Below, piece after piece: positions 9,537 to 50,862 of a stretch of 64,000 nt of DNA. Position 1 is the first letter of the stretch. The number at the start of each line of letters is the position of its first letter. The position numbers and the translations under genes are program-made. The DNA comes from a bacterium. GTDB lineage: Bacteria; SZUA-182; DTGQ01; JAFGSM01. The notes beneath the pieces are model-generated. The model did no database searches. It saw only the letters and a list, made by a program, of their open reading frames with translations, and was not told the origin of the DNA. Location of the stretch: NCBI GenBank assembly GCA_049472355.1, contig JBLIRP010000004.1, positions 1-64,000 of the forward strand, read 5' to 3'.

Positions 9537-9543
9537 TACGACA

Positions 9544-24271: not shown

Positions 24272-24317
24272 CAGTGTGCCTCCATAATCTTGAAACTCTC
24301 TATACTCCAGTCTTCCA

Positions 24318-24539
24318 TGTTTAAAAGCTATCCTCTTGTAATTGAAGGCTTAAAAAGCGGCGAAACAGCTTTTCATGTGCACCCCCGTCATGGGCATGGA
24401 TTAAAGTCAAACATCTCCCTGTCGATGGACCATATGGTCATTTTTTTAGATGATATACAGACGACTATTGAAAGGCAAGGGCTAAGACAATGGAATTATG
24501 AATTCGAGTCCCTTGTGATTCATGATCTCCCTTGAATTC
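24318..24539 (+). CDS. Small hypothetical protein (73 aa)
   Basis: Open frame [29 protein letters not shown]... in the low-GC islet. No recognisable domain. Confidence 0.25.
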
Positions 24540-24548
24540 AACCATTAT

Positions 24549-24578
24549 ACGTTAGACGTTAGTTGCGTTAGGCGTTAG
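24549..24578. repeat. Short tandem repeat (ACGTTAG/GCGTTAG) x4
   Basis: Read directly: acgttagacgttagttgcgttaggcgttag. Confidence 0.8.
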
Positions 24579-24596
24579 GTGGCTCCAGACTTGCTG

Positions 24597-25330
24597 TCAA
24601 TTCTCAAGCCTCCTGATCAGGTTCAGGCAGTGCTCATTTCCTGGATGAAGCTGTATTCCTCTCATGGCAATGTCTCTCGCGCGATCCTCCCTGCTGATGT
24701 TTAGATACAGCCATAATAGGCGGGAGCATTCTGTCGCAGAAAGGTTGGGCAGGTGACGTTCCATTGCGCTCGCCACCTGTTCGATGAGCAGTCGGACTTC
24801 AGGTGACCAGGCATCCTCCAATCGCCGACCCTTAAGCTCACGAATCCTATTGTTTATTCGGTTTGCGAGGGTGCCAATCTCGCTGGCGGTGACGTATGGC
24901 AGGAGGGCAGCCTCGGATAGTGCATGGACCTCTCCAACTACGTCTTCTGTAGAATGGCACAAATCTGCCAGCTTCAACCATGCGCCCCTCCTATCATGCG
25001 CATCTGCGGTCTCGAGGAATCGCCGGAGGTATGTCCTGCAAAGTCTCGAAAGCGAGTGGTGATGAGAACCTTGTTGGGTGGACGGATGTGAGCGTCTATC
25101 CAGTTAAAGACATCGGCTGGATTATCAAGTGTTTCAAAATTATCGAGGACGAACAAGCTCGGTCCAGCCGCGCCATTCGCAAGGCAGCATTGAAAGTAGA
25201 CCTCGGGTTGAAAATTAGGGCTGTATACTTCCGATGGCTCAAGGAGCTTAACTGCTGCTTGTGCGATATCCTCTTCGCGGACGACCCGGGGACAAACAGG
25301 CTTTGGGCCAAATTATAGAAGATCAATGTC
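24597..25330 (-). pseudogene. Probable frameshifted or degraded remnant of a larger NTPase (STAND/NB-ARC-like) protein, split into two or more ORFs
   Basis: Two abutting minus-strand ORFs (24974-25156, then 24597-24977) are separated by a stop/start junction. The upstream fragment reads ...GPSLFVLDNFETLDNPADVFNWIDAHIRPPNKVLITTRFRDF, which resembles the hhhhDD / hhhTTR Walker B-to-sensor region of NB-ARC/NACHT ATPases. The region is low-GC. Confidence 0.3.
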
Positions 25331-25716
25331 TCGGGCATGATCCAAAGAATTACATCATAGGGTGTCGTTCAAGCTCGGCTATCGACTGGATCGCTGCGAT
25401 GGTTTTCATATGCATAGATTGACTATGACAAGATGCCCTTATGGAACCCTCACATCTGGACAGCAGTTATTGAATATGGTATAAATAATATAGAAATTTT
25501 TATGTCATTTTTGTTATCCATCGTTCTTTTTGACCGGTAGTGCGATATACCAGGGTATGTTCGGATAATAAGGGAGTCTTCCTTTTGAAGGATCCGGCAC
25601 ATAACCATTAATTCCGGAATTCATTCTCTTGACGGGGATTTTCATAAAGGGACGAGGCAACACGGGTGCATCGCTTCACCCATTTAGAAAAAGCGCATGG
25701 TAAGGAGGAGTGCATA

Positions 25717-26229
25717 ATGGAGGGTCCAAATCGTTCAATTGACAAATACCTGCGGCAGGCGGCGTGCATAGTGAGCATGCTGCTCATCGTTGCAGTGACA
25801 ACACCGACAATGGCTTCAGCCCAAATCTGGTATGGATACGGCGGTGGCTACCGGCCCACAGGGGGATGGACCCCCATGGGTATGGGTTATAACACCATGG
25901 CGGGTATGCCGAACTATTGGGGTATGGCAGCGCCCGTGTCTTATGGTGCAGGGGGCTGGGCCAGGCAGGGCAGCGGGTACTGGGGAGCGGCATCACCCAC
26001 CTGGGGAACGGGGATAGGTTACGCGGGATTCCAGTCAATGGCGCCCAGATATTATGGCTCCTCAGGACCATACGGCACTGGACCGCAGGCGCAATGGATG
26101 AATACGCCTACCTTCCCGCAGCAGGGGTGGCCCTCGTATGCCGGTTATTCTGCCGGTGGGTGGCAGCAGCCTATTGCCGACATTCCTTCCGGGTGGATAG
26201 GCCCGAACAGTTTCGTGTCAACCGGGTGA
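25717..26229 (+). CDS. Secreted Gly/Trp/Tyr-rich low-complexity protein (signal peptide plus about 140 aa of GW/GY-rich sequence)
   Basis: Strong SD AAGGAGG 8 nt before the ATG at 25717. The signal peptide is MEGPNRSIDKYLRQAACIVSMLLIVAVTTPTMASA|QIW. The mature part reads YGYGGGYRPTGGWTPMGMGY...GGWARQGSGYWGAASPTWGTGIGYAGF... An AT-rich promoter region lies at 25440-25660. Confidence 0.6.
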   Translation: MEGPNRSIDKYLRQAACIVSMLLIVAVTTPTMASAQIWYGYGGGYRPTGGWTPMGMGYNTMAGMPNYWGMAAPVSYGAGGWARQGSGYWGAASPTWGTGIGYAGFQSMAPRYYGSSGPYGTGPQAQWMNTPTFPQQGWPSYAGYSAGGWQQPIADIPSGWIGPNSFVSTG

Positions 26230-26506
26230 GGCTGCTAACAGTTCCGGCGGTCAGCCGGACAACGGTCAAGCGGCTTCAGGAAAATAAAGTCTTCCTTAAC
26301 GATGACGGGGAGAGACGGCGATGTAACGTATCGGGCGCACCGGGATCGGGTACGGCGGGAAGGTTGACAACCTCCGGGACCTATGTTTAAATGAAACGTT
26401 ACGATGGGAGCGCACTGGTGCCGTTTAGGGCACCTTTTTTTTAATTCATTTTTCAAACCCGCCTGCTCGCGCGGATGGATTCGGAGGACGTACTTACGGC
26501 GGCATC

Positions 26507-31799: not shown

Positions 31800-33692
31800 A
31801 TGGACACACTCCTTTCCCGGATCGAGGGTCCCGAAGACCTCAAAGACATCCCCGTTGCGGATTTACCTTCGGTCGCCGAGGAGATACGGGACCTCATCAT
31901 CGCCACGGTGTCGAAACGGGGGGGACACCTCGCCTCCAGCCTAGGGGTGGTTGAACTGGCCATTGCCCTCCTCTACTGCTACGACACCCCGCAGGACAAG
32001 ATCATATGGGACGTGGGACACCAGTGCTATGCCCACAAGATCCTCACCGGCAGGAGGGATCGATTCTGCACCCTCAGGGACTACGCGGGCATCAGCGGAT
32101 TCCCCAAGTGCGAGGAGAGCCCCTATGACTGCTTCAACACCGGTCACAGCAGCACCTCCATCTCCGCAGGGCTGGGCATGGCGGTGGCCCGGGACCTCCA
32201 TGAACAAGACTACAAGATCGTCTGCGTCATCGGCGACGGCGCCATGACCGCCGGGATGGCATTCGAGGGCCTCAACCAGGCCGGTGCACTGAAGAAGGAC
32301 CTGTGCGTCATCCTGAACGACAACGCCATGTCCATATCGAAAAACGTGGGCGCCCTTGCCACCTATCTGAATCGCATCATCACCGGCCAGCTCTATAACC
32401 GCATCAAGGAGGACATGGAGACCGTACTCCGCTCCATCCCCCAGGTGGGTGCATCCATCTTCAAGTTCGCCGCCAAGATGGACGAGGCGGTCAAATCACT
32501 CTTCATCCCCGGCATCATGTTCGAGGAGCTGGGATTCAAATACGTGGGCCCCGTGGACGGGCACTCCCTGCCGAACCTCATCGACACCCTCAATGCGGTG
32601 AGGAAGCTGCGGCGTCCCATCCTGCTCCACGTGATCACCACCAAGGGGAAGGGATACAACCCGGCGGAGGAAAACGCCTCCTCCTTTCACAGCGCCCTTC
32701 CCTTCAGCATCGAATCGGGCAGATTCGAGCGGGGAGAGGGTTCGAGCATCACCTTTACCGAGGCATTCTCACAGGCCGTCTGCAGCCTGGCGGAACATGA
32801 CGAACGGATATGCGCCATCACCGCGGCAATGCCGGAGGGGACCGGCTTGGACCGTTTCGGGGAGCGGTTTCCACAGCGCTTCTTCGATGTGGGGATTGCG
32901 GAGCAGCATGCCCTGACCTTTGCCGCAGGCATGGCCACCCAGGGTATGAGACCGGTGGTGGCGATGTATTCCACCTTCCTGCAGCGGGGCTATGATCAGG
33001 TACTCCACGACATCTGTCTCCAGGGTCTTCCGGTATGCATCGCCCTGGACAGGGCAGGCATCGTGGGACGGGATGGTCCCACCCACAACGGCGTCTTCGA
33101 CCTCTCCTACCTGCGCCACCTGCCCAATATGATCCTCATGGCGCCGAAGGACGGGGATGAACTGGCGAGGATGCTCGCCACCGCCCTCGCGAGCAATCAG
33201 CCGGTCGCAATCCGGTACCCAAAGGAACGCACCAATGCTGATACGCTCCATGGGACCTTTGAGCCGCTTCCCATAGGCAAAGGAGAGGTCCTCAAGGAGG
33301 GGAAGGACTGCCTGCTGGTGGCCATCGGCTCCATGGCTTCCATGGCGCTCAAGGCGGCGGAAATCCTGGAGAGTGAAGGAATAGAGGCAACGGTGGTGAA
33401 CGCACGGTTCGTAAAGCCGCTGGACAGGGAGATCATCTGCGCCCTTGCTCAAAAGACGGGAAACGTCATCACCATAGAGGAAAACGTCCTGGCGGGGGGA
33501 TTCGGGAGCGCCGTCATGGAGATGCTCAATGAGGAGGGACTGGCCCAGGCTGTTCGGGTCTTTTGTATGGGTATTCCGGACACCTTTTCCCCGGCGGGCT
33601 CCCAGGAGAAGATACGCGGCCTGTACGGCCTCACCCCGAAGGGCATCGCCAAGTTCTGCCGCGGCGTGATCGCTCAAACCAAACTTTGTTAG
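31800..33692 (+). CDS. dxs: 1-deoxy-D-xylulose-5-phosphate synthase
   Basis: 630 aa with the TPP-binding motif GDGAMTAGMAFEGLNQAG and a transketolase-like C-terminal domain. It lies immediately downstream of ispA, a common arrangement. Confidence 0.95.
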   Translation: MDTLLSRIEGPEDLKDIPVADLPSVAEEIRDLIIATVSKRGGHLASSLGVVELAIALLYCYDTPQDKIIWDVGHQCYAHKILTGRRDRFCTLRDYAGISGFPKCEESPYDCFNTGHSSTSISAGLGMAVARDLHEQDYKIVCVIGDGAMTAGMAFEGLNQAGALKKDLCVILNDNAMSISKNVGALATYLNRIITGQLYNRIKEDMETVLRSIPQVGASIFKFAAKMDEAVKSLFIPGIMFEELGFKYVGPVDGHSLPNLIDTLNAVRKLRRPILLHVITTKGKGYNPAEENASSFHSALPFSIESGRFERGEGSSITFTEAFSQAVCSLAEHDERICAITAAMPEGTGLDRFGERFPQRFFDVGIAEQHALTFAAGMATQGMRPVVAMYSTFLQRGYDQVLHDICLQGLPVCIALDRAGIVGRDGPTHNGVFDLSYLRHLPNMILMAPKDGDELARMLATALASNQPVAIRYPKERTNADTLHGTFEPLPIGKGEVLKEGKDCLLVAIGSMASMALKAAEILESEGIEATVVNARFVKPLDREIICALAQKTGNVITIEENVLAGGFGSAVMEMLNEEGLAQAVRVFCMGIPDTFSPAGSQEKIRGLYGLTPKGIAKFCRGVIAQTKLC

Positions 33693-34076
33693 GGCGCAGC
33701 GTAAGCGAAGGCTCAAACCAAGCTTGCCAGGGCGGAGCGCAGCGGAGCCACTATGCTCCCCTTCCAATCCACCAAAAGGCCTTGCGACAACACCTTTAAA
33801 AAGCTTGCCAGGGCGGAGCGCAGCGGAGCCACTATGCTCCCCTTTCCATTCTCCCAAAAGGCCCGCAACTCCGCCTTTAAAAAGCTCCTCAGGCCTGGCG
33901 CAGCAAAGCTAATCGATCTCTTCCTATCACACAAAGGCAGCGTCTGGAATATCTACCTTTCCTTTGGGATCACAATCGCAATCACATCAGGCAGGCTGGC
34001 GAATATCTGCCCTGTCAACAGCGGGATTCGTAGAGCCATTGATAAATAATATGTAATTGATTATATTTGTAATATA
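33674..34076. repeat. Composite repeat element, copy 1. Partial unit overlaps the dxs stop, then two tandem ~82-bp units, a spacer, and a ~170-bp conserved module ending in a sigma70-like promoter.
   Basis: Units: aagcttgccagggcggagcgcagcggagccactatgctccccttccaatccaccaaaaggccttgcgacaacacctttaaaa, present twice. The module 33930-34076 is about 85-90% identical to 41090-41246. Confidence 0.85.
34040..34068 (+). promoter_or_regulatory. Near-consensus sigma70 promoter TTGATA-17nt-TATATT at the 3' end of the repeat module. It faces the hypothetical ORF and giant-protein gene.
   Basis: The -35 TTGATA is at 34040-34045 and the -10 TATATT at 34063-34068, with exactly 17-nt spacing. The identical promoter is found at 41207-41235. 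Confidence 0.5.
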
Positions 34077-34126
34077 CCTGAGATTGCTTCGGCTCTCGCC
34101 GTGCGCTTTGCTCGGGGCTTCTGCTA

Positions 34127-34236
34127 CACCGCCATGATCTTCTGATCACAACGAAGCATGAACGTTTTTAGAAACAAGTGATTATTTGAAAACCTTCACA
34201 TAAACCGCCATGATCTAGCGATCACAACGAAGGATG
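34127..34236. repeat. Two 34-bp direct repeats (ACCGCCATGATCTnnnGATCACAACGAAGnATGA) separated by 76 bp
   Basis: Copies are at 34127-34160 and 34203-34236. Each contains an internal TGATC...GATCA inverted repeat. Confidence 0.7.
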
Positions 34237-34359
34237 AAAATAAATAAAACAAAGGGCTGTTAAATTATTTTCTTATAAACGCAATGGCATCTTGGGGACC
34301 CCGTATCGAGTCGTCAAGGGCACCATTATAGAAAAAAATTACTGAATCGGAAAAGATAA

Positions 34360-34767
34360 ATGCCCTGGAGCAGGCGAAACGATTGCGAAATCCCTCTTTC
34401 TCGGACAGTTGCCGAAACCGAGGTTGAATGTTACGAAAAAGATGGATTACAGGAGAGGATAGATCTTTTAGGATATAGACACCGGAATCTCATTACGATT
34501 TTTGATGGTAAGATGTCGAATGTCATTGATTTCACAAACATAGTTGATCCGACCTGTTTTGATAGGCGTGACCCTGGTGGAACTGCATCACGTGCTTATT
34601 TACTGCGAAGTCAAAAAAACTGTTTATCCTCTTCCGGGGATTCCATTTTTTGCAGGGTGTTTGGGCGCTTATACCGTGGCGACCGAGGAATCTCTTCAGA
34701 AGAGACAATTTTTTCAATGACTCTCCATAGATCTGCCAGTAACAATTTTATTCCTTCCTTGCTTTAG
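34360..34767 (+). CDS. Hypothetical protein (135 aa)
   Basis: ORF between the promoter module and the giant gene. No recognisable domain and lower GC than neighbours. Confidence 0.25.
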   Translation: MPWSRRNDCEIPLSRTVAETEVECYEKDGLQERIDLLGYRHRNLITIFDGKMSNVIDFTNIVDPTCFDRRDPGGTASRAYLLRSQKNCLSSSGDSIFCRVFGRLYRGDRGISSEETIFSMTLHRSASNNFIPSLL

Positions 34768-34802: not shown

Positions 34803-37800
34803 ATGGCTTCAAAAAACCGTCATAAAAAAATCAGTTTCATAACCTTGGCAGGCTCGATTCTTCTTCTGTTTTTCTGGGTAAATACTTCCCGGGCGCAAAC
34901 GGCTGCCGAATACATTGCACAGGGGAGGGCGCATCTCTCACAGCATACGATGGAAGGTCTCATGAATGCCCATTCGAAATTTCAGGCAGCACTGGTGATT
35001 GAACCCAATAATCCAGAGGCCAATTTTTTCTTTTCGCTCACTCGCCTGCCTGCACTTTTGGATAATTCCGCATCATATACCGATGGTTTTCCCATTGAAA
35101 ATGCCAAGGAACTCTTGGATGGTCTTGATGTGGATGCGGAAGGGAGGGACCTCTTTGAATGGGAAGCCAAATTCACTGAAGACGGCAGCGGGGATGTCCT
35201 TTTGCCTTCTGATTCCCCCACAGGTGATGTAGTTCAGGATTTTTTAACATCTGTCATCATGTCCGAGATTGAAGGGGTACTTACCGATCTCACCAATTTG
35301 GATGCGACATTTACTACCGTGTTGACCGCTTCGGAGACCGGAGAGGAACAAGATATTGAGATCGATTATGGGGATATCCTTTTGTACCGATCCCTACTGA
35401 ATGTCGCCAAGATGGGGCTCTCTTTCATATCCGCCTACGACATGGATGTGGATATCGATACCTTAGTGAATATGAACAGCGAGCTTTTTGATGTGGACGA
35501 GGATCTTCTCGATGTTTATCCGAACCTGTTGACACTGCTCTTGGATGGCGACGATCTCATGGCTGATGCAGGGAATGCCCTGCTCTCGGCCATTGATGCC
35601 TTTGATGAGGCCTCTTTGTTCATTCAGGAGACAGAAACGGACAACCAGGAGGACGATCTTGTCACCCCTGATGAAATAGCCGGAGGTGGTGATTTCAAAT
35701 GCAAACCAATAGTGGAACAGATCAAAGGCTCCCTGGTGAACAAGGAGCCTGCAGACCTTTCGCGCATTGAGGAAACCTGGGAATTGACGGATGATCATGG
35801 AAATACCATCCTTATGAGAATAGAAAAAGACCATGCCGGCAATTTCCTGGGCGGGGACTTTCACGGCATCGATGGTTGCAGTTTTCTGGCCTGCCGCGGA
35901 TGGGTTGAAGACTTCTCAATGGTGGACTCAAATATAGTCATCACCACTGCATGCGGGGGCGGGTGTCCTTGCTCAGCCATACTCGAAGGTCGGATGAACG
36001 AAGATGGGACGCGAATCATTTCAGGGACGTATCTGTCGCAGGATTGTCTCGAAACTGTATCCGGGACCTTTACCGGACTAAGGACCGAATATGAAGAGAC
36101 TCCTATGAGGATTGATGTGAGCGAGTTCTTTGACGACCCCATCAGCATCCGGGATTATCTGCCTGGGCTTACCCATGATCCATACACACGTGAGATCATG
36201 CTGGCAAAAAGTCTTATGGAGTCTTTCCCGGACCGGACCCTGTCGGGCATCTTTCCTGACGGATTGCCGGTCGAAGGATTCGGGCTCGATCTGGTCACGA
36301 TCCGAGGGGGAAGCGCATCCGGGGGGTCTTCTTACGGCGTTGCTTCATGCCTTGTGTGGGGCCTTGCCCCCTGGGATATCGAGTCCCTCACCATTTATGG
36401 TCCTCTGGGTTTGCAGTATGAATTTGATCTGGAAAAGGACACCATGGTGTTTTACAAATACGGGATGATGTATAACGTTAGTGCTCCTTCCTATCCGCCT
36501 GAAGGGTGGTATGAATTTGTTTTGATCGACAAACAGGGTCGAAGCGTATCTGCAGGCAGATATTTCACCCCCAATCCCATCGATGTGGTGGATATAGCAA
36601 CAGGCGAATCTCCCGCAGACAAGGCCTATGTAAACACCCTGACGCCTGCCTTGAACTGGTCGCCTGTGACGGATGAACGGATTGATACGCTATATTACAG
36701 GGTGAATATCATGGACTGGAATGGGAAGGTCAATGTCTATTCATCCGACAGGGTTGCAGGCACGACAATAACGGTGCCGGCGGGTATCCTGATGCCCAAC
36801 GAGGTCTATCAATGGAATGTTCGGGTATTTGACAGCGCGAACGGCACCAGTGCGAATAATTTTTCTTCCAGTGATTGGAAGGTCTTTTGCACAGGCGGTG
36901 AAAACGATCCGCTGAATATCGAATTGGCCTTTGTTCATAGCAGGGTGGAGCCAGATGATATGCATGACATGACCCTTTTTGCCATCGATATAGACGGGCC
37001 TGCACCCTATGATATCGGCTCCCTGGCAGTGTCAGGCCCGGGAGGATTCTCGCATACCTTCGACCCCATCGATGATTACCATTCCGATATCTACCTGCAC
37101 CACGAAGACGGTATCCTTACGGACGGGACCTATACCTTTACTATTGTGGATGATCGAGACGGCAACACACTGTCTGTTGACCGGGATTTTACTTTCAATC
37201 GCCTGCCCGTCCCTGAAGAGCTGCATACCCCATCCTTTGAGTCATATGTCCGGACGACCACGCCAACCTTCAGCTGGAGCAGGGCACATGACGAGACGGT
37301 GGATCCCCTCTCCTATCGGGTGATGATCTATGATTATAATCATAACATTATTTACAAATCTCCTCGCTCCCCGGAGACATCCGCAACGGTTCCCCCGGAT
37401 TGCTTGAAAATCCATAACCCCTATTTCTGGCGCGTTCAGGTGTTTGATGGGACCTCCACGATTCAAAACAGCGCGGTTACGAATATGATGCCCTTTTATG
37501 TTGTAGCGGACAATCCACCTTCGATCATTTCAGGACAGATTGAGACAGGGATGAGCGGTTATACGGGCGGCGATATCTTCGTCTGCGTGTTCGATCAGGC
37601 CCTGCAACCTCTTGCATCTCCCCTCTTCTGTGTCACCCTTTCCGATATAGGTTCGTATACCCTGTATGACCCGCCTACCAATACGGATCTTTATATCTAT
37701 GCCCTCTGGGACAAGGACGGGAGTGATTGTTACACAGCCGGTGACTGGGCGGGGATATACGCTGAAAATCCGGTTGTGCTCGACGACGGCGGTATTTTTA

Positions 37801-40784
37801 CGAATGCCGATATCGCCTTAAATAACGAGATCCCATCGGCATCGGTGACCGGGCATGTCAGTTGTGATGATTTTGAGCCGGGTCTCGGTGACATCTCTAT
37901 TTTTGCATTTGACGGGGAAGATCCCTCAGATGCGCATCTGCTTGATTCCACGTCCATTGGGAGCCCATCCGAGGCATACACCCTGTCCAATCTTCCGGTC
38001 GATGTCTATGCCTACCTGTTTGCCCGTTGGGATAGGGATGGTAGCGGGACGAAGACACCACCGGACTGTCTGGGAAAATATTCAGAGAATCCGCTCCTTA
38101 TAGAAAGTGGGGGCCTTACGGGCATCGATATTGCGCTTATTCCAACGCTCATTGACCCATTTTCCGTAGATATTCACTGGATCTATTACAATGACAATTC
38201 CGGCAGAACGATTGATTATGATTATTTCGATGCGGATGACATCAATGAAGATGGAGATATCACCTTCCCCCCGGAGGCTCTCATATCCGTTCCTGATGAG
38301 GAATCAAATGCCATCTTCACCTGGGAATCCGTAATGGGAAATCAGGAAACATATATTTCCGGCGGGGTATATCAGGTGGCAGTACCCCAGGCCCAGGACG
38401 CGGTCAAGGCAATTCCCACTGCAGATATCAGCATATATAGTCCAATCGAGGAATGGGATGGGATCCCGTTATATATCGAGGATGCATTGCTCGATAATCC
38501 ATCGTGGATCCCCGAAGGTGCGGATGCGGATATGCACTATCTGAAATTGGCTTATAGCCCTGATCTTTCTAAACTCAATATCCTCATGAAATTGGAGGGT
38601 GAGGCGAATCCGAACGTCTGGTATCGTCTCTTCCTGGATAAGGATTTGGATGGAAGGACGGATGAACCGGGAGACTATCACATAGATTTTCAAAATCAAG
38701 CCGGTATTTGGGAGGTCGTAAGCCAGGGTTGGAATTCTGAAAATGGCTGGGACCGGTATCCGGTTGAGGAAAATGGCATGGTTGTCATATCCGGCGAATT
38801 CATACAAGCGACCGTAAACACCGCATCTTTCGGGCTTCCGGGTGAAGTCAATATCTACGGCCGTACAATGCAAAATGACTATCCTTACAGCAATTATGAC
38901 ACCTTTTCCACTAATTATTTAGAGGCGAACGGCCTATCCGTGATAGGCGGGCATAACATTACGGCATCATCTCCGACGGAATGGGAGTTTGCCCTGGGCA
39001 CTACGAACTTCCGAAATGTGTCGAAGGATCAGCATTATTACGATGTGTGTGTCGGGATCGGGGGTTCACGTTTTGCGAGAGGAAATGTAGAGGCCGATAT
39101 TGATGCGGCATGGTTTACCGGCACATACCAGGGCGTTTTTTATGAAGATGCCCTGATATTCACGGCACATGTTTACAATCAACTGGGTGGGGACGATCAC
39201 TATGCATGGGATTGGGACCTCGAAACCGGAGAGGGGCTCATCCTGACCGGGCTCGATCCGACAAGCACGACGTTGGACTTCAAGGTGACAACCACGGATG
39301 ATGGTCGGACCTTTTCCGGCTATTATCGCATAAACAGCAATGATGAATCGGACTGGCAGTTATTGGTCACGCATACCTTGCCCCCGGATACCGGAGTAAT
39401 ATGTGGCTTTCCTGAATGCTCCCCTTCGGTACATTTCGAGACGGGGATAATCCCGCTCGAATATCTTTGTGATGGTGATATCAATCACGATGATGAAATA
39501 ACCCCCATCGATGCCCTATGTGCCTTCCAAACCTATTTGGAGATATGTCCGACAAGATGCGGGCCATGTGAGGGCATATGCTGCGATGTGAATATGGATG
39601 ACGACTGCACGCCGGCCGATGCGCTGTGTATTTTCCGGAAATATCTCGGAATCCCCTGTTGTCTGGATAAAGAAAATCTCAACATAGGTAAGGCCTTTGC
39701 TCTTCTGAATACGGGGGAGCAAGGCACAACTCGGCTTATTGTGCTTGCGGATATCAGAGACGATACAGGGGCACAGGTGCCTTTTGCCGATGTATGGGTG
39801 GTTGATCCTCAAGGGAATACGATACAGCTAAGACGAAATAACGGGCACGGTCTTTATGAAGGAAGTCCTGCCGGTTCCGAGATCTTGCTCGGAGATTATA
39901 CGTTTTATGCCGAATACGCGATTCATGAAGCAGCGCCGGTAGTGAAAAATGTAAGTAGTTTAGAGATCCTTGAGCCTCCGGTGTTGTTAAATTTTCAGCT
40001 TCCTGAGGAAGGACAGCCCTGGGCTGTTTCCTGGGAGCAGGTTCCGGGAGCGCAAGGTTATCTTGTCATGCTCAGGTATGACAATAATGACGACCAACCG
40101 CTCTTTACAAATGTTGCTGATATTTTTTCAAGTACGTTGCCGACCGCTCATTCGGTGGAGATCCCTGCAGGATTGGTGCATCCTCATGCGGATTATGAGC
40201 TGGAAGTGATTGCGGCCAACGGCACGACTCTTGAAGGTACGACCGCGATTTCTTCGCTGCAAGAGGAATTCAGTACCAGGCCGCCATTTTCTGTTCCCTA
40301 TAAGACGATAGCTATTGATGGAAATTACAACGACTGGTCGGATCCAAACGACCTTGTGTATTGGGACACGGACGGCCCGGATTGTGCTGGGGGGCAGGAT
40401 ATCCAAAAGGTATATCTTGCGCAGGACGATACCTTCCTGTATGTGCGTTATGTGCTTGGCGGCCCGTTGGACCAGTCATTTGGATATAAGTTTGGTGACG
40501 GCCGGTTGCACACCTACGTTTCAAATACCAATGGTCAGAAGCGTTTATTCTGGGCCTGGGATCATACAGAGTATGACATAGATGATTTGGGTTATCCCTT
40601 GAGCAGCCAAGAGCAACCTGCTGATTTCGTTTCAATAGACGGGAATCAATTTGAAATAAAGTTCCTTAAATCAGACGCTCGGATTTGGCAAGGGAGGGAC
40701 ATTGATGCCTGGAGCGACCAAGGTCATGAAACTGTCTGCACGGACATGTGCCGGTTGCCGGAGATATTGGATTTGGATTTCTGA
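34803..40784 (+). CDS. Giant secreted repetitive protein (1993 aa). It has an N-terminal signal peptide and TPR-like region, multiple FN3/Ig-like beta modules, and a Cys-rich dockerin-type double calcium-binding repeat near residue 1560.
   Basis: Signal peptide MASKNRHKKISFITLAGSILLLFFWVNTSRAQT. Repeated modules include YVNTLTPALNWSPVTDERIDTLYYRVNIMDWNGKV...YQWNVRVFD and TPTFSWSRAHDETVDPLSYRVMIYDY...YFWRVQVFD. The dockerin-like segments are CDGDINHDDEITPIDALCAFQTYLE and CDVNMDDDCTPADALCIFRKYLG. Confidence 0.85.
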   Translation: MASKNRHKKISFITLAGSILLLFFWVNTSRAQTAAEYIAQGRAHLSQHTMEGLMNAHSKFQAALVIEPNNPEANFFFSLTRLPALLDNSASYTDGFPIENAKELLDGLDVDAEGRDLFEWEAKFTEDGSGDVLLPSDSPTGDVVQDFLTSVIMSEIEGVLTDLTNLDATFTTVLTASETGEEQDIEIDYGDILLYRSLLNVAKMGLSFISAYDMDVDIDTLVNMNSELFDVDEDLLDVYPNLLTLLLDGDDLMADAGNALLSAIDAFDEASLFIQETETDNQEDDLVTPDEIAGGGDFKCKPIVEQIKGSLVNKEPADLSRIEETWELTDDHGNTILMRIEKDHAGNFLGGDFHGIDGCSFLACRGWVEDFSMVDSNIVITTACGGGCPCSAILEGRMNEDGTRIISGTYLSQDCLETVSGTFTGLRTEYEETPMRIDVSEFFDDPISIRDYLPGLTHDPYTREIMLAKSLMESFPDRTLSGIFPDGLPVEGFGLDLVTIRGGSASGGSSYGVASCLVWGLAPWDIESLTIYGPLGLQYEFDLEKDTMVFYKYGMMYNVSAPSYPPEGWYEFVLIDKQGRSVSAGRYFTPNPIDVVDIATGESPADKAYVNTLTPALNWSPVTDERIDTLYYRVNIMDWNGKVNVYSSDRVAGTTITVPAGILMPNEVYQWNVRVFDSANGTSANNFSSSDWKVFCTGGENDPLNIELAFVHSRVEPDDMHDMTLFAIDIDGPAPYDIGSLAVSGPGGFSHTFDPIDDYHSDIYLHHEDGILTDGTYTFTIVDDRDGNTLSVDRDFTFNRLPVPEELHTPSFESYVRTTTPTFSWSRAHDETVDPLSYRVMIYDYNHNIIYKSPRSPETSATVPPDCLKIHNPYFWRVQVFDGTSTIQNSAVTNMMPFYVVADNPPSIISGQIETGMSGYTGGDIFVCVFDQALQPLASPLFCVTLSDIGSYTLYDPPTNTDLYIYALWDKDGSDCYTAGDWAGIYAENPVVLDDGGIFTNADIALNNEIPSASVTGHVSCDDFEPGLGDISIFAFDGEDPSDAHLLDSTSIGSPSEAYTLSNLPVDVYAYLFARWDRDGSGTKTPPDCLGKYSENPLLIESGGLTGIDIALIPTLIDPFSVDIHWIYYNDNSGRTIDYDYFDADDINEDGDITFPPEALISVPDEESNAIFTWESVMGNQETYISGGVYQVAVPQAQDAVKAIPTADISIYSPIEEWDGIPLYIEDALLDNPSWIPEGADADMHYLKLAYSPDLSKLNILMKLEGEANPNVWYRLFLDKDLDGRTDEPGDYHIDFQNQAGIWEVVSQGWNSENGWDRYPVEENGMVVISGEFIQATVNTASFGLPGEVNIYGRTMQNDYPYSNYDTFSTNYLEANGLSVIGGHNITASSPTEWEFALGTTNFRNVSKDQHYYDVCVGIGGSRFARGNVEADIDAAWFTGTYQGVFYEDALIFTAHVYNQLGGDDHYAWDWDLETGEGLILTGLDPTSTTLDFKVTTTDDGRTFSGYYRINSNDESDWQLLVTHTLPPDTGVICGFPECSPSVHFETGIIPLEYLCDGDINHDDEITPIDALCAFQTYLEICPTRCGPCEGICCDVNMDDDCTPADALCIFRKYLGIPCCLDKENLNIGKAFALLNTGEQGTTRLIVLADIRDDTGAQVPFADVWVVDPQGNTIQLRRNNGHGLYEGSPAGSEILLGDYTFYAEYAIHEAAPVVKNVSSLEILEPPVLLNFQLPEEGQPWAVSWEQVPGAQGYLVMLRYDNNDDQPLFTNVADIFSSTLPTAHSVEIPAGLVHPHADYELEVIAANGTTLEGTTAISSLQEEFSTRPPFSVPYKTIAIDGNYNDWSDPNDLVYWDTDGPDCAGGQDIQKVYLAQDDTFLYVRYVLGGPLDQSFGYKFGDGRLHTYVSNTNGQKRLFWAWDHTEYDIDDLGYPLSSQEQPADFVSIDGNQFEIKFLKSDARIWQGRDIDAWSDQGHETVCTDMCRLPEILDLDF

Positions 40785-40953
40785 TCTGATAAGAAATTTA
40801 ATTGTAGTCGGTGCCCAAATGGTGCCCATCGTTATGGAAAAATCGAAAACATGTAAAATCCCGAAAGGTTCATTAAGAGGGATTCTCGGCGAAAAATTAA
40901 TAAGTTCATGCCATTAAACAGATTATCCTCGACGAGTTAAGCGAACCAAAGCC

Positions 40954-41258
40954 TCAAACCAAACTTTGTTAGGGCGGAGCGTAAGCGGAGCCTCTATGCT
41001 CCCCTTCCAATCCACCAAAAGACCCTGCGATTACGCGTTTTAAAAAACTCTGTTAGGCCGAAGCGTAAGCGAAGCCACCAGACCTCTTCCTGACACACAA
41101 GGGCAGCGTTTGGCAGTACCTTCCTTCCCTTTGGGACCGACAATCGCAACCAAAACAGGCAGGCTGGTGAATGTCCGCTCTGTCAACAGCGGGATTCACT
41201 CAGCCATTGATAAATAATATGTAATTGATTATATTTGTAATATATATGCATAGGGTTT
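40954..41258. repeat. Composite repeat element, copy 2. It begins with a 24-nt duplicate of the dxs 3' end (ctcaaaccaaactttgttagggcg), then a degenerate unit and the conserved ~170-bp promoter module.
   Basis: 40954-40977 is identical to 33674-33697. 41090-41246 is about 85-90% identical to 33930-34076, including the TTGATA-17-TATATT promoter at 41207-41235. Confidence 0.85.
41207..41235 (+). promoter_or_regulatory. Second copy of the TTGATA-17nt-TATATT promoter, about 90 nt upstream of the 619-aa secreted protein gene
   Basis: Identical -35/-10/spacer to the copy at 34040-34068. Confidence 0.5.
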
Positions 41259-41323: not shown

Positions 41324-43183
41324 GTGGACGCAATGATGCAAAGGGCAAGATGTCTATGCATCCTGACGGTCTTTATCGTGCTGCTTACCTTGATGACAGG
41401 TATGGCCGGGGCGAAGACGGGGACCGAGCACCCATTCCTTTTGGACGTTCCCGCCTCCTATAACCTGCCGTTGTGGATGTATTCCTGGAATCCCTCTTTG
41501 GCCTGGAAGGGCATGGCCGGGGCGAAGATAGAGATCCAATATCCAGTCCCTTTGGACATTCCCGGCTCTTATACATCATCGATAGGGATGCCTTTATGGA
41601 ATACACCCTTAGGCCGGATCGGGAATGGCCCTGCCGATCACCTCAGTCATGCCTATTATGCATGGTTGTATCCATCAACCCTCAATTATATTCCCCTGTG
41701 GTCCCATCCATGGTTCTATTCCTCTTCCCCATCCCAAAAAGCGGCAAAACCGTTCCACCCTGTTTTTGAGAACCTGAGTCTTTTCAAAATGGGCCCTCTC
41801 TATGCCCAAATCGATGAGCCCTACCGATATCTGTTCATCGCTGATTATACATATCATACATCCGAGAGCATAGAGTTGTACTTTATGGATGGTGATCAGC
41901 TCTCATGTACCAGTATTTTTGATCTCTTGCTTCATCCCGTAGAATTCCTCCTCTTTGTCAACGACCCCAATGATCCGAATGATCCGGTGGCGAAATACTG
42001 GATGGATCTCGGGGCGGACCCGGCCCTGTTTGGTGAAAACGATCCGCATATGGCTGCCCTTTTCGGCAGGGCATCGTTCAAGGTCGATCTCGACCTGCCC
42101 ATCTTTGCTGACCCGAATCTAAGGTTCGGTGGTCATTTGGCGGAGAGGATCATCGAACAGGGCCATATGGGGTGGAAGGTAACCGTGAATGGAGCTGTTC
42201 AGGGGCAGCCCCTGCAGATCAATCCGCTCCCGGTGGACCCCTATGATGGTATGCCCACCTATCTGCCGGCAAACTATACCGCGGTCAAGACGATAGATGC
42301 CTATGCCAAGCCATTCTATCGTATGGACGTTGTGTTCGTTCTGGAGGGCGCGCTGTGGAACTCCGGTGTGTCGGTCTGGCCGAATGTGGCTGCACTGGAT
42401 TACACGCCGCAGGATTTTGAAGACCTGATGGTGACCATCGAGGTGACCAACGGAATAGATTCGGAGGTCAGCATCTTTCCCATCACCGTACTTGATTACC
42501 CTGTGGAAAATTATGATCCTGTGCCGGCATCCGATGAGGTCGAACTGACAGTATATGTGGGAGAATCGTTTCGTTATGCTCTTTGGTGCATCGACCCGGA
42601 TTGTTTCATCTTCTCACAGGCTTACAATCTGTATGGAGAGGTCCCTGACACCACGCATGTGCCTTGGAATGCCCCGGGCATGGCATTCAGGACTGACATG
42701 TCCTCCCTGGAATGGGACATTCCGGGGGACTACTCCATCAGCAACTTCAATCCATCCTCGGGGCTCATCTCATGGGTCCCGGTGCGTGAAGGGATTCATA
42801 CTATGGTCGTGACCTGTTCGGACAACCATGGCGGTACCGCCGACATCGAATTGAAAATCTCCACTGAATGCCGCGGAGGCCCCTGCAATAATCCGCCCAT
42901 CATCACAGGCGCTCCCACACAAATCCTGACAATCATTGCCGGACAGGAGTTCGTCCTGGGTCCACCCGATTTCTCAGTGGAAGATCCGGATTACGATGAG
43001 ATCTACGCATCCTGCAATGTCGGTTCCTGCGAGAGGGATGGGGATGGCAACTTTGTGTGGAAATTTCAGAGCGACTTCCCAGGCTCTTATATGGTTGAGA
43101 TCATCTTCCACGATATCAGAGGGGGACATGCAATAATGGAATTCTTTGTGGACGTGCAACCATGGTGGGTGAATCCTTCATGA
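41324..43183 (+). CDS. Secreted hypothetical protein (619 aa) with an N-terminal signal peptide. The likely start is ATG 41333.
   Basis: MMQRARCLCILTVFIVLLTLMTGMAGA signal. There is an internal duplication (MAGAKTGTEHPFLLDVPASYNLPLWMYSWNPSLAW / MAGAKIEIQYPVPLDIPGSYTSSIGMPLWNTPLG). C-terminal beta-rich Ig-like regions. No catalytic motif recognised. Confidence 0.6.
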   Translation: MDAMMQRARCLCILTVFIVLLTLMTGMAGAKTGTEHPFLLDVPASYNLPLWMYSWNPSLAWKGMAGAKIEIQYPVPLDIPGSYTSSIGMPLWNTPLGRIGNGPADHLSHAYYAWLYPSTLNYIPLWSHPWFYSSSPSQKAAKPFHPVFENLSLFKMGPLYAQIDEPYRYLFIADYTYHTSESIELYFMDGDQLSCTSIFDLLLHPVEFLLFVNDPNDPNDPVAKYWMDLGADPALFGENDPHMAALFGRASFKVDLDLPIFADPNLRFGGHLAERIIEQGHMGWKVTVNGAVQGQPLQINPLPVDPYDGMPTYLPANYTAVKTIDAYAKPFYRMDVVFVLEGALWNSGVSVWPNVAALDYTPQDFEDLMVTIEVTNGIDSEVSIFPITVLDYPVENYDPVPASDEVELTVYVGESFRYALWCIDPDCFIFSQAYNLYGEVPDTTHVPWNAPGMAFRTDMSSLEWDIPGDYSISNFNPSSGLISWVPVREGIHTMVVTCSDNHGGTADIELKISTECRGGPCNNPPIITGAPTQILTIIAGQEFVLGPPDFSVEDPDYDEIYASCNVGSCERDGDGNFVWKFQSDFPGSYMVEIIFHDIRGGHAIMEFFVDVQPWWVNPS

Positions 43184-43439
43184 TACCCTTGCGGGAGAAT
43201 TCAGGCGCGCGGTCACGGAGATGCTCAATGAGGAAGCGCTCGCCCAGGCCACATCCAGGTCTTCCATATGGATATCCCGGACAACTCTTGCCCGGCGGGC
43301 TCACAGGAGAAGATCCGGGGCATCTGTAGTCTCAGCCCAAAGGGCATCACCCCCGGTTCTGCTGACGCGTGATTATTTTATCCTGACGCCCCCTCGAATC
43401 AAAAATTGAAATCCTGTCATTGCGGAGGAAGCAACCCGG

Positions 43440-43650
43440 AGCAACCAAGCTTGCCAGGGCGAAGCGCAGCGGAGCCACTATGCTCCCCTTCCAAACTACC
43501 AAAAGGCCTTGCGACAACACGTTTAAAAAGCTTGCCAGGGCGAAGCGCAGCGGAGCCACTATGCTCCCCTTCCAAACTACCAAAAGGCCTTGCGACAACA
43601 CCCTTAAAAAGCTTTGTTAGGGCAAGGTGCGGCGAAGCCTCTACGCCGAC
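43440..43650. repeat. Composite repeat element, copy 3 (two complete ~82-bp tandem units plus a partial unit, without the promoter module)
   Basis: The unit aagcttgccagggcgaagcgcagcggagccactatgctccccttccaaactaccaaaaggccttgcgacaacacgtttaaaa is present twice (43449-43530, 43531-43612). It lies downstream of the 619-aa gene. Confidence 0.85.
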
Positions 43651-43769
43651 TTCTCCAGCAACCTATACATTATTATATACGTTCTCAGGTACAGATTCCT
43701 TAATGAATCCATACCGATGAAGATGAACTGCCTCTCAATCAATAATCCCTCACAGCGCCTTCACCGGCA

Positions 43770-50124: not shown

Positions 50125-50862
50125 ATGGGAGAAAAGGGAAGAAAAAAACGGGAGGCACACTCACAACCCCCACCCCTGCCCTCATGCGGGCTTGCAGAGG
50201 ATATCCTGAGGCCGGATCTCTCCTCTGAGACCAAGGCGTCCGAGGGGCCCGGCACAGGAAGAAACAGAGCACAAAAAAAGGGGGAGAAGGAGGCCATGGA
50301 GCAACCCCCACCCCTGCCCTCATGCGGCCTTGCCGAGGATATCCTGAAGCCGGACTTTTTTGCCGAAATGAAGACTGCGGAGAAGCAGGAGCAGAGAAAA
50401 TCAGGAAACAACAGCACCATCAGGAGGGAAGGATTGACAAAATTCGTCACCTTCTTCCTTGACGCAGAGGAATATGCCCTTCCCGTCTCACAGGTCAGGG
50501 AGATCAAGCGGGTGGGAGAGATCACCCGGGTTCCCAATGCACCTCAGCACATCAGGGGCGTGATGAACCTTCGGGGGCGGATCGTCCCGGTGCTCGAGCT
50601 CAAGAAACGCCTTCAACTCGGGGAGGCGGCCATCGACATGGACAGCAGGATCGTGGTGGTGGAGCAGGGAAACAGGGTGCTCGGGCTTATGGTGGATCGG
50701 GTCTCCCAGGTCATGAACATCGCAGCCGAGCAGATCGACAATGCCCCGGAGGAGGTGGTGCAGGTGAATGAAAACTACCTCAAAGGGGTGGGAAAACTTG
50801 ACGAGCGGATGATTATCCTGCTGGACCTCGAACAGATAACGGGGAAGGAGGTGGAGTCATAA
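50125..50862 (+). CDS. cheW: CheW-like coupling protein with an N-terminal low-complexity extension containing a tandem duplication (QPPPLPSCGLAEDIL[RK]PD x2). The alternative start is ATG 50297.
   Basis: The C-terminal ~150 aa form a CheW domain (TKFVTFFLDAEEYALPVSQVREI...VPVLELKKRL...VLGLMVDRVSQV). DNA 50163-50217 and 50301-50355 are about 90% identical direct repeats, each preceded by SD plus ATG. Confidence 0.75.
   Translation: MGEKGRKKREAHSQPPPLPSCGLAEDILRPDLSSETKASEGPGTGRNRAQKKGEKEAMEQPPPLPSCGLAEDILKPDFFAEMKTAEKQEQRKSGNNSTIRREGLTKFVTFFLDAEEYALPVSQVREIKRVGEITRVPNAPQHIRGVMNLRGRIVPVLELKKRLQLGEAAIDMDSRIVVVEQGNRVLGLMVDRVSQVMNIAAEQIDNAPEEVVQVNENYLKGVGKLDERMIILLDLEQITGKEVES

What the first reader, a model, noticed from the sequence alone, without database searches (positions are those of the whole stretch)
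34803..40784. 1993-aa secreted modular protein with Cys-rich dockerin-type repeats in a non-cellulolytic-looking genome context
The protein has a signal peptide, TPR-like N-terminus and many FN3/Ig-like repeats (recurring ...Y[RW]V.[VI].D motifs). It has two 22-residue calcium-binding dockerin-like segments (DINHDDEITPIDALCAFQTYLE / DVNMDDDCTPADALCIFRKYLG) that are unusually cysteine-rich, possibly disulfide- or metal-stabilised. About 430 further residues follow the dockerin. The gene has slightly atypical composition and is flanked by the repeat elements, which fits recently acquired or mobile surface-adhesin cargo.
Basis: partly seen in the sequence, partly recalled or inferred. Interest (0 to 1): 0.6.

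Follow-up and report, generated by a model that had tools for sequence, protein, structure and literature searches.

The report
Giant surface protein with cysteine-rich dockerin
This is a real 1993-residue secreted, non-enzymatic surface or matrix protein, stitched together from three units that elsewhere are separate proteins. It carries a genuine but unusually cysteine-rich "dockerin" plug and sits on a 9.7-kb piece of foreign DNA inserted at the end of the dxs gene; it is a new variant of a known kind of system, not a new one.

Summary
The ORF 34803-40784 (+) is real and intact, and a second assembly holds the identical protein. It has a Sec signal peptide and a predicted TPR-like helical domain with an inserted 8-stranded avidin-like barrel. 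After these come two FN3/Ig-like modules, two further beta modules, and a 440-aa unit with CBM9/DOMON-like and lectin-like folds. A 67-aa dockerin (aa 1556-1622) and a 371-aa tail complete it.

The dockerin is genuine. Both calcium loops are intact, a family profile finds only dockerins in the PDB, and the confident model superposes on a type I dockerin at 1.8 A. It belongs to a conserved cysteine-rich subfamily, named only from Desulfobacterales MAGs. In that subfamily the module normally ends [protease or beta-helix]-[cohesin]-[dockerin] proteins.

The 440-aa unit plus dockerin, and the tail, each exist elsewhere as stand-alone secreted proteins, so the gene is a three-way fusion. No catalytic domain was found, and there is no cohesin in the 64-kb window. 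Some homologues lie beside type II secretion or cohesin genes.

GC3 is 0.53 against 0.64-0.85 for 21 other window genes. The gene and an orphan secreted neighbour lie in a 9.7-kb insert bounded by imperfect direct repeats of the dxs 3' end plus 81-nt units.

Verdict: a probable cohesin-docked adhesin on an acquired island, of moderate interest.

The parts
34803..40784 (+). Gene for the 1993-aa secreted modular protein (identical to NCBI MAG protein ACMUIL_01280).
   Evidence: The identical ORF is on an independent Logan contig, DRR851379_443825.
34803..34895 (+). Sec signal peptide, aa 1-31, with predicted cleavage after SRA.
   Evidence: Sequence inspection. The AF2 model shows an N-terminal helix at aa 4-28.
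34896..35747 (+). All-alpha, TPR-like helical domain (aa 32-315). It is the family-defining N-terminal domain shared with P0002-P0014.
35763..36101 (+). Eight-stranded up-and-down beta-barrel insert (aa 321-433) with 6 Cys. It is absent from homologues P0003, P0004 and P0005.
36618..36896 (+). FN3/Ig-like module 1 (aa 606-698), of Ig_Rha78A_N type.
   Evidence: Pfam PF25788, E 5.3e-8. Motifs YRVNIMD at aa 632 and WNVRVFD at aa 671.
37236..37517 (+). FN3/Ig-like module 2 (about aa 812-905). The boundaries are inferred.
   Evidence: Pfam reports a second Ig_Rha78A_N stretch. Motifs YRVMIYD at aa 838 and WRVQVFD at aa 876.
37521..38147 (+). Two beta modules of about 105 aa each (aa 907-1115). They are related to repeats in CarboxypepD_reg-rich proteins, but the family assignment is not verified.
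   Evidence: BLAST gives 33-40% identity to P0011 and P0012. P0012 has 5 CarboxypepD_reg stretches. The query segment itself has no Pfam hit.
38148..39467 (+). Module B (aa 1116-1555). It is homologous to stand-alone secreted proteins of about 500 aa, and is predicted to have CBM9/DOMON-like and jelly-roll lectin-like folds.
39468..39668 (+). Cys-rich dockerin (aa 1556-1622). It has two EF-hand-like Ca loops with helices, at aa 1559-1580 and 1595-1616, and 11 Cys.
39669..40283 (+). Tail part 1 (aa 1623-1827). It is beta-rich with an FN3-like WAVSWEQVPGAQGY motif. Together with the next part it is homologous to the stand-alone 385-aa protein P0037.
   Evidence: Exhaustive HMMER. P0058 carries this part after three SLH domains. 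The AF2 model here is poor.
40284..40781 (+). Conserved 160-aa domain of unknown function (aa 1828-1993). It is about 50% identical to a domain in many secreted proteins, usually at their C-terminus.
   Evidence: No Pfam family covers it and a PDB profile search found nothing. Weak profile similarity to the start of module B, hhalign E 0.0014.
33488..33886 (+). Left direct repeat of the island. It consists of the last 205 nt of the intact dxs gene plus two 81-nt repeat units.
43187..43694 (+). Right direct repeat of the island. It is a frameshifted dxs 3' remnant (43187-43351, 79-83% identical to the left copy) plus two to three 81-nt units (up to 88% identical).
40953..41078 (+). Internal junction between the two island genes. 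It holds a copy of the last 20 nt of dxs with 22 nt downstream (93% identical) and about 1.5 repeat units.
33972..34076 (+). Leader repeat D3, copy 1. It contains the best sigma-70-like promoter match of the region (TTGATA-17-TATATT, 34039-34067), 735 nt upstream of the gene.
41140..41244 (+). Leader repeat D3, copy 2 (90% identical to copy 1). It holds the same promoter match (41207-41235), upstream of the 619-aa gene.
41324..43186 (+). Second island gene. It encodes an orphan 619-aa protein with an N-terminal signal peptide. GC3 is 0.61.
   Evidence: No homologue was found among any fetched locus or protein.

Best explanation
The gene encodes a large, very acidic, non-catalytic surface or matrix protein of an anaerobic bacterium from an unclassified lineage. 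It is probably an adhesin.

Proposed mechanism:
- It is exported by Sec, as shown by its signal peptide.
- By inference from homologues it is passed across the outer membrane by a type II secretion system.
- It is then held in the extracellular layer because its dockerin (aa 1556-1622) binds two Ca2+ ions and plugs into a cohesin module on another protein.
- The remaining modules would supply ligand or polysaccharide binding and reach. These are the TPR-like domain, the avidin-like barrel, the FN3/Ig modules, the CBM9/DOMON-like and lectin-like domains, and the conserved C-terminal domain.

The dockerin belongs to a cysteine-rich subfamily. Its co-varying cysteines most likely form disulfide staples.

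The polypeptide is a fusion of three units that occur elsewhere as separate secreted proteins: the N-terminal family, module B plus dockerin, and the tail.

The gene arrived by horizontal transfer. It is part of a 9.7-kb insert at the dxs 3' end that duplicated the end of dxs. The insert carries a second orphan secreted protein, and each of the two genes sits behind its own copy of the same promoter-bearing leader.
For: Shown:
- The ORF is intact and is reproduced in a second assembly.
- It has a signal peptide.
- Modules 66-76% identical to it end proteins of architecture [Peptidase C13, C1 or S8, or beta-helix]-[Cohesin, E 2e-5 to 8e-10]-[dockerin].
- In a Desulfococcaceae MAG such a protein sits among five cohesin and/or dockerin genes.
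- Fusion: module B is 44-52% identical to stand-alone proteins P0015-P0020, and four of these end in ordinary dockerins. The tail is 44% identical to the stand-alone 385-aa protein P0037. GC3 is uniform across modules at 0.49-0.56.
- No catalytic family was found by Pfam, NCBIfam or PDB searches.
- The predicted folds are binding-type.
- Foreign origin: GC3 is 0.53 against 0.64-0.85. Direct repeats of the dxs 3' end plus 81-nt units bound a 9.7-kb segment. The 81-nt units occur nowhere else in the 64 kb.
- The nearest relative has Phage_integrase fragments directly after dxs.

Inferred:
- T2SS export. P0004 and P0006 (N-terminal family) and P0016 (module B family) lie beside T2SS genes.
- Cohesin partners. 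Cohesin genes lie within 10 kb of P0004 and P0013.
- Disulfides. Column 55 and column 66 Cys are gained and lost together, are replaced by columns 4 and 67 in a subclade, and a block of seven extra Cys co-occurs.
Against: - No cohesin was detected in any of the 492 six-frame ORFs of the window, and none in the protein itself. The best E-value was 0.98. The rest of the genome could not be searched.
- The query's own Pfam Dockerin_1 score is below the gathering threshold (14.5 against 22.9 bits).
- The dockerin is internal, whereas it is C-terminal in most relatives.
- The window holds no T2SS genes. T2SS adjacency was seen in only 2 of 6 contexts examined for the N-terminal family.
- Half of the C-terminal model has low confidence (mean pLDDT 53). 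The CBM9-like and lectin-like assignments are therefore tentative, and a cryptic enzyme cannot be excluded.
- The query has an odd number of Cys (11) in the module, so at least one is unpaired within it.
- No integrase lies in the window.
- Both dxs 3' copies have host-like GC of 0.61, so the insertion mechanism remains open.
Confidence: 0.6

Rival explanations
1. The Cys-rich segment is only a structural calcium-binding or metal-binding staple of EF-hand or TSP3 type. It would stabilise a long extracellular protein and have no cohesin partner.
For: The Pfam score is sub-threshold. There is no cohesin in the window. The module is internal. An unrelated single EF-hand-like loop, DINEDGDITFPPE, also occurs at aa 1146-1158.
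Against: A family profile retrieves only dockerins from the PDB. The model superposes on dockerins at 1.8 A. 14 of the 16 close full-length relatives of the module carry a cohesin in the same protein. TSP3_bac did not hit the query.
Confidence: 0.15
2. The cysteines coordinate a metal or cluster (Zn or Fe-S), or act as a redox switch. Docking would then depend on redox state or metal supply in sulfidic sediment, making this a regulated variant of the cohesin-dockerin interaction.
For: The module has 11 Cys in 70 residues, an odd number. It contains the run CPTxCGPCExxCC. The named hosts are anaerobic Desulfobacterales.
Against: The core of the family has only 3 Cys. The extra Cys are gained in co-varying sets, as expected for disulfide pairs. 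No metal-binding family was hit. There is no direct evidence either way.
Confidence: 0.12
3. The protein is a secreted enzyme, for example a polysaccharide lyase or hydrolase. Its catalytic domain would be too divergent to be recognised, and the dockerin would recruit it to a multi-enzyme complex as in cellulosomes.
Against: No catalytic family was found by Pfam, NCBIfam or the PDB sequence search. The same fold matches lectins and galectins equally well. The model confidence is modest. No GH16-type ExDxxE motif was seen in aa 1400-1550, by inspection.
Confidence: 0.1
4. The 1993-aa ORF is an assembly or annotation chimera of three adjacent genes.
For: The three parts exist as separate proteins elsewhere.
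Against: The ORF is uninterrupted. The identical protein lies on a contig from a different assembler. GC3 is uniform across modules. Homologues P0004 and P0005 also combine the N-terminal family with a C-terminal dockerin.
Confidence: 0.03

Closest known systems
Type I dockerin modules of cellulosomal enzymes, such as the Clostridium thermocellum Xyn10B ('xylanase Y') dockerin, PDB 2ccl_B (Pfam PF00404)
   Same: It has a duplicated 22-residue segment with a 12-residue Ca loop plus helix. The predicted fold superposes at 1.8 A over 58 residues with 24% identity. The profile matches solved dockerins only. From my own knowledge, Xyn10B also has an internal dockerin followed by another domain.
   Different: It has 11 Cys where classical dockerins have essentially none. 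It has a TPxDAL helix start and a Cys-rich linker, CPTxCGPCExxCC. It falls below the Pfam threshold. The host is not cellulolytic. No scaffoldin or glycoside hydrolase lies nearby.
Non-cellulosomal cohesin/dockerin proteins of sulfate-reducing bacteria and ANME archaea (Peer et al. 2009, cited in PMC9012536; Chadwick 2022, PMC9012536; Murali 2023, PMC10553843)
   Same: These are dockerin- and cohesin-bearing putative adhesins in anaerobic sediment organisms. They are variable in domain content and were proposed to be horizontally exchanged. One homologue of the N-terminal half comes from Desulfobacteraceae Eth-SRB1.
   Different: Those papers list domains and do not describe a Cys-rich dockerin subfamily, the cohesin-dockerin C-terminal tandem, or this N-terminal family. 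The present host is an unclassified lineage whose dxs is at most 57% identical to all but one genome. No syntrophy link is shown.
Fungal (Neocallimastigomycota) cysteine-rich dockerins
   Same: They are small, Cys-rich docking modules on secreted proteins (my own knowledge).
   Different: They have an unrelated fold, disulfide-knotted and of about 40 aa, without EF-hand loops (my own knowledge). The module here has bacterial type I architecture. The resemblance is in name only.
Genomic islands integrated at the 3' end of a gene by tyrosine recombinases
   Same: The target gene is kept intact. A displaced, decaying copy of its 3' end lies at the far side as an imperfect direct repeat. The cargo is low in GC. 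The nearest relative has integrase fragments at the same site.
   Different: No integrase or excisionase lies in the island or the window. The repeats are long (about 400-500 nt) and only 64-88% identical. There is an internal third junction, and each gene has its own copy of a leader and promoter.

Membership tests
Dockerin type I (PF00404) | Two tandem segments of about 22 residues, each a 12-residue EF-hand-like Ca loop (D/N at positions 1, 3, 5 and D at 12) followed by a helix. | tested here: met
   DINHDDEITPIDAL... (aa 1559-1580) and DVNMDDDCTPADAL... (aa 1595-1616). The loop residues are conserved across 14-51 family members.
Dockerin type I (PF00404) | A score at or above Pfam's gathering threshold. 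| tested here: not met
   The query scores 14.5 bits against a cut-off of 22.9 (E 0.041). Modules 66-76% identical to it pass: P0023 at 29.8 bits and P0032 at 26.4 bits.
Dockerin type I (PF00404) | Sequence-profile relationship to experimentally solved dockerins. | tested here: met
   The profile of 14 modules hits 9 PDB sequences at E<1, and all are dockerins. The best is the ScaH dockerin 8ajy_B at E 0.0022.
Dockerin type I (PF00404) | The dockerin fold, a pair of F-hand helices. | tested here: met
Dockerin type I (PF00404) | A cognate cohesin encoded in the same genome. | tested here: inconclusive
   No cohesin was found in the 492 six-frame ORFs of the 64-kb window (best E 0.98). The rest of the MAG is not available. 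In 14 of 16 close relatives a cohesin precedes the module in the same protein.
Dockerin type I (PF00404) | Ca2+-dependent high-affinity binding to a cohesin. | not testable with these tools
   This needs biochemistry.
Cellulosome (scaffoldin plus dockerin-bearing glycoside hydrolases) | A multi-cohesin scaffoldin and dockerin-bearing carbohydrate-active enzymes. | tested here: not met
   No cohesin, glycoside hydrolase or second dockerin lies in the window. The dockerin partners in relatives are proteases, LRR and beta-helix proteins.
Integron gene cassette | An intI integrase nearby, and attC sites that fold as imperfect hairpins. | tested here: not met
   No recombinase was found among the window genes scanned. 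Single-stranded DNA folds of the junction repeats are no better than shuffles (z from -1.0 to +1.5). Each gene has its own promoter-like leader.
Integrase-mediated genomic island at a gene 3' end | Direct repeats made of the target's 3' end, flanking compositionally foreign cargo. | tested here: met
   33488-33886 matches 43187-43694. Cargo GC3 is 0.53-0.61 against 0.64-0.85.
Integrase-mediated genomic island at a gene 3' end | A tyrosine or serine recombinase gene within the island. | tested here: not met
   There is none between 33.5 and 43.7 kb. Only the relative L001 has Phage_integrase fragments after dxs (E 2.9e-7).
Type II secretion substrate | A Sec or Tat signal plus dependence on a T2SS for release. 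| not testable with these tools
   A signal peptide is present. T2SS genes adjoin homologues P0004, P0006 and P0016, but none are in this window.

The most novel reading that the evidence does not exclude
The cysteine-rich dockerin, together with the cohesin that usually precedes it, could be an undescribed surface-display system of Desulfobacterales-like anaerobes. Secreted proteases, beta-helix proteins and giant adhesins would chain head-to-tail through cohesin-dockerin tandems. The cysteine cluster would make docking sensitive to redox state or metal. Under this reading, the present protein is a chain terminator or anchor (dockerin only, no cohesin) that has been carried into a distant lineage on a small dxs-targeting cassette element with its own promoter.
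Probability: 0.12. Interest if true: 0.7.

Novelty: new variant of a known kind. Interest (0 to 1): 0.38.

Why it matters
Cohesin-dockerin pairs outside cellulosomes are widely listed, but their function is largely unknown. In sulfate reducers and methane-oxidising consortia they have been proposed to mediate cell-cell attachment (PMC10553843, PMC9012536).

This locus defines a compact, easily recognised dockerin subfamily with up to 11 cysteines. It also defines a recurrent [enzyme]-[cohesin]-[dockerin] C-terminal tandem. Both give concrete modules to express and test for binding partners, calcium dependence and redox dependence.

The locus also documents a three-gene fusion that produced a giant adhesin-like protein. 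In addition, it shows a small insertion site at the dxs 3' end that appears to be used repeatedly in this deep, unclassified lineage.

None of this overturns current understanding. The value is as a well-delimited test case.

Tried and rejected
2. The afdb50 fold library was unavailable.
3. A whole-protein phmmer search against PDB sequences gave nothing meaningful.
4. A profile of the conserved C-terminal domain against PDB sequences gave no hits.
5. Self-BLAST did not detect internal repeats. Only motif counting and Pfam did.
7. I tested the integron-cassette idea for the 81-nt repeats. There is no intI and no hairpin signal. Rejected.
8. I searched public collections for the 81-nt repeat core and for the shared leader/promoter core. 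There were no exact matches in metagenome contigs or viral contigs.
9. tRNA and Rfam scans of the window found nothing.
10. The synteny test in relatives was not decisive. Only one genome has dxs more than 57% identical, and its contig ends 0.8 kb after dxs.
11. The small ORF 34360-34767 has no family hit and lies inside the long 5' leader. I do not treat it as a gene, although one pipeline called it.
12. The 619-aa neighbour has no Pfam hit and no homologue among the fetched data.
Full report
**Observation**

The ORF at 34803-40784 (+) is present as described: 1993 codons, an ATG start and a good Shine-Dalgarno-like motif. The exact protein exists in NCBI as a hypothetical protein of an unclassified bacterial MAG (ACMUIL_01280, on an 85-kb contig). 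It is also on an independently assembled 6.8-kb Logan contig, so it is not an assembly chimera.

- The N-terminus is a typical Sec signal (KNRHKK, a hydrophobic core, SRA|Q).
- The two quoted 22-residue segments lie at aa 1559-1580 and 1595-1616.
- 377 residues follow the second segment, not about 430.
- Eleven of the protein's 32 cysteines sit in the 70 residues around these segments.
- The protein is very acidic: D+E is 14-21% and K+R 4-6% in every module.

**Module map**

| Residues | Feature | Evidence |
|---|---|---|
| 1-31 | Signal peptide | |
| About 520-905 | Two copies of a beta domain plus an Ig_Rha78A_N/FN3-like module (Pfam E 5e-8, two stretches).
| 907-1115 | Two beta modules related to repeats in CarboxypepD_reg-rich proteins. 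The assignment is not verified. | |
| 1116-1555 | 'Module B' | See below |
| 1556-1622 | Dockerin | See below |
| 1623-1993 | Tail | See below |

Residues 1-1130 define a family of large secreted proteins (P0002-P0014, 28-54% identity). Their C-terminal halves vary (CARDB, PKD, BNR, prenyltransferase-like). P0004, from Desulfobacteraceae Eth-SRB1, and P0005 end in ordinary dockerins.

**The dockerin is real and belongs to a subfamily**

The query alone scores below Pfam's threshold: 14.5 against 22.9 bits. However, the 67-residue module is 66-76% identical to the extreme C-terminus of many proteins (P0021-P0034). Two of these pass the Dockerin_1 threshold.

- An alignment of 14 modules keeps both Ca loops and the helices.
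- Its profile finds nine PDB sequences at E<1, and every one is a dockerin.
- In the AlphaFold model this is the best-predicted stretch (pLDDT 79-93).
- TSP3_bac did not hit the query.

**What is unusual**

The subfamily consensus is GDVNGDGEITPxDALCAFQxYLxICPTxCGxPCExxCCDVNxDxxCTPADALCIFxKYLGxPSCLD.

Across 51 members the cysteine count runs from 3 to 11.

- The helix-2 Cys (column 55) and the C-terminal Cys (column 66) are always present together.
- In one subclade they are jointly replaced by columns 4 and 67.
- A block of seven further Cys (columns 2, 19, 28, 32, 39, 40, 48) is gained together.

This is the pattern expected of disulfide staples. Relatedness inflates such statistics, though, and metal binding is not excluded. 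The query has an odd number of Cys, 11.

All source names are Desulfobacterales, Desulfobacteraceae, Desulfococcaceae or Desulfatibacillum MAGs. I found no paper in the held library that describes a bacterial Cys-rich dockerin. Fungal Cys-rich dockerins are unrelated (my own knowledge).

**Cohesin**

In 14 of the 16 close full-length relatives, a Pfam Cohesin domain (E 2e-5 to 8e-10) immediately precedes the Cys-rich dockerin. This gives the architecture [Peptidase C13, C1 or S8, beta-helix, or Ig]-[cohesin]-[dockerin]. In a Desulfococcaceae MAG such a gene sits among five cohesin and/or dockerin genes.

The present protein has no cohesin.

- A family cohesin HMM finds nothing in it or in any of the window's 492 six-frame ORFs.

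Whether the genome encodes a cohesin elsewhere could not be tested.

**A three-way fusion**

- Module B (aa 1116-1555) is 44-52% identical to stand-alone proteins of about 500 aa, each with its own signal peptide. Four of these end in ordinary, non-Cys dockerins.
- An exhaustive HMMER search shows that the whole tail is equivalent to a stand-alone 385-aa protein, P0037 (44% identity).
- The last 160 residues of the tail form a conserved domain without any Pfam or PDB relative. It is about 50% identical to a domain, usually C-terminal, in dozens of secreted proteins with CARDB, PKD, MopE or CarboxypepD_reg modules.
- All modules share the same GC3 of 0.49-0.56, so the fusion predates arrival in this genome.
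- No catalytic family was detected anywhere in the protein.

**Genomic context and acquisition**

Upstream lie pgm, aspartokinase, a leuA-like gene, ispA and dxs. Downstream lie an OMP beta-barrel gene, a TPR protein and a chemotaxis cluster. There is no T2SS, no recombinase and no glycoside hydrolase.

The big gene has GC3 0.53 and the next gene, an orphan 619-aa secreted protein, has 0.61. The 21 other window genes range from 0.64 to 0.85.

The insert is bounded and subdivided by repeats.

- The segment 33488-43186 is bounded by imperfect direct repeats.
- The left repeat is the last 205 nt of the intact dxs plus two 81-nt units (33488-33886).
- This recurs at 43187-43694. There the dxs part is 79-83% identical and frameshifted.
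- Between the two genes lies a third, shorter copy: the last 20 nt of dxs, 22 nt downstream and about 1.5 units (40953-41078).
- The 81-nt units occur nowhere else in the window.

Each gene is preceded by its own copy (90% identical) of a 105-nt leader. These two copies carry the two best sigma-70-like promoter matches of the region, TTGATA-17-TATATT.

The layout looks like two related cassettes inserted in tandem at the dxs end. The mechanism could be site-specific or Campbell-type recombination.

- Both dxs 3' copies have host-like GC.
- No integrase remains in the window.
- The repeats do not fold like attC sites.

The one close relative (dxs 77% identical; all other genomes are at 57% or less) carries a Phage_integrase C-terminal fragment (E 2.9e-7). 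A second, weaker recombinase N-terminus also lies directly after dxs. Its contig ends there.

**Mechanism proposed**

Shown:
- It is a Sec-exported, acidic, non-catalytic multi-module protein with a bona fide dockerin.

Inferred:
- Export across the outer membrane by a T2SS. Homologues P0004, P0006 and P0016 adjoin T2SS operons. This holds for only 2 of 6 contexts in the N-terminal family.
- Ca-dependent docking onto cohesin-bearing proteins. Cohesin genes lie within 10 kb of P0004 and P0013.
- Ligand or polysaccharide binding by the barrel, the CBM9-like and lectin-like modules and the C-terminal domain.

This agrees with published proposals that cohesin/dockerin proteins of sulfate reducers act as adhesins and are exchanged between clades (PMC10553843, PMC9012536).

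**Verdict**

The protein is a new member of the non-cellulosomal dockerin-bearing surface proteins.

Its dockerin represents a cysteine-rich variant that appears undescribed in the literature I could search. The fusion architecture and the dxs-end insertion are tidy but not surprising. Interest is moderate (0.38).

Noticed in passing
window 33488-33886, 40953-41078, 43187-43694: A 9.7-kb low-GC insert at the dxs 3' end is bounded by imperfect direct repeats (dxs 3' end plus 81-nt units), with a third partial copy between its two genes. The 81-nt unit occurs only at these three junctions in the 64 kb. Its core has no exact match in the metagenome or viral collections.
   Followed up: yes
window 33972-34076 and 41140-41244: A duplicated 105-nt leader (90% identical) carries a near-consensus sigma-70 promoter (TTGATA-17-TATATT) in front of both island genes. 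For the big gene this implies a 5' leader of about 735 nt. A 26-nt core of the leader has no exact match in metagenome contigs.
   Followed up: partly
window 34118-34162 and 34194-34238: Two 45-nt direct repeats (82% identical) lie inside the long 5' leader of the big gene. Each contains a short palindrome (ATGATC...GATCAC) and one overlaps a terminator-like hairpin on the minus strand. This could be a regulatory element. Rfam found nothing.
   Followed up: no
window 41324-43186: The second island gene encodes an orphan 619-aa protein with a signal peptide and a Cys-containing Ig/cadherin-like C-terminal part. It has no Pfam hit and no homologue among the 89 fetched loci and 188 fetched proteins.
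   Followed up: partly
L001 12040-12201 (-) and 12406-12717 (+): In the only close relative (dxs 77% identical), a Phage_integrase C-terminal fragment lies directly downstream of dxs. The start of a second recombinase-like gene (a weak SAM-like domain hit, E 0.037) follows. The dxs 3' end may be a recurrent integration site in this lineage.
   Followed up: partly
L083 (Desulfococcaceae MAG JBFXEJ010000015.1) 2730-15708: This is a cluster of five genes with cohesin and/or dockerin domains, with partners including LRR, beta-helix and cadherin domains. A FadL/TodX-type outer-membrane channel gene sits among them and a PEP-CTERM protein gene is nearby. It is a non-cellulolytic 'cellulosome-like' locus.
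   Followed up: no
L087 9149-9868 and L089 306-1076: A 240-256-aa gene with a weak LptC-like hit lies immediately upstream of two homologues of the N-terminal family (P0012, P0003). It could be a conserved partner gene. It is absent from the present window.
   Followed up: no
window 38238-38276 (aa 1146-1158): A single EF-hand/dockerin-like loop, DINEDGDITFPPE, lies at the start of module B. It is not conserved in the stand-alone homologues P0015-P0020.
   Followed up: no
window 23000-26500 and 59000-62000: Two further stretches have GC of about 0.48-0.50 against a background of 0.54-0.61. They contain few long ORFs and could be other foreign or non-coding regions.
   Followed up: no
window 50164-50216 and 50302-50354: A 53-nt direct repeat (94% identical, 138 nt apart) lies inside the 5' part of the cheW-like gene (50125-50862). 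It implies a duplicated 46-residue N-terminal segment.
   Followed up: no
window 54395-58544: A 796-aa protein composed almost entirely of HEAT repeats is encoded between two cheR genes within the chemotaxis cluster. The second cheR ORF (from a GTG at 57474) overlaps its end, so the true start of that cheR is probably further downstream.
   Followed up: no
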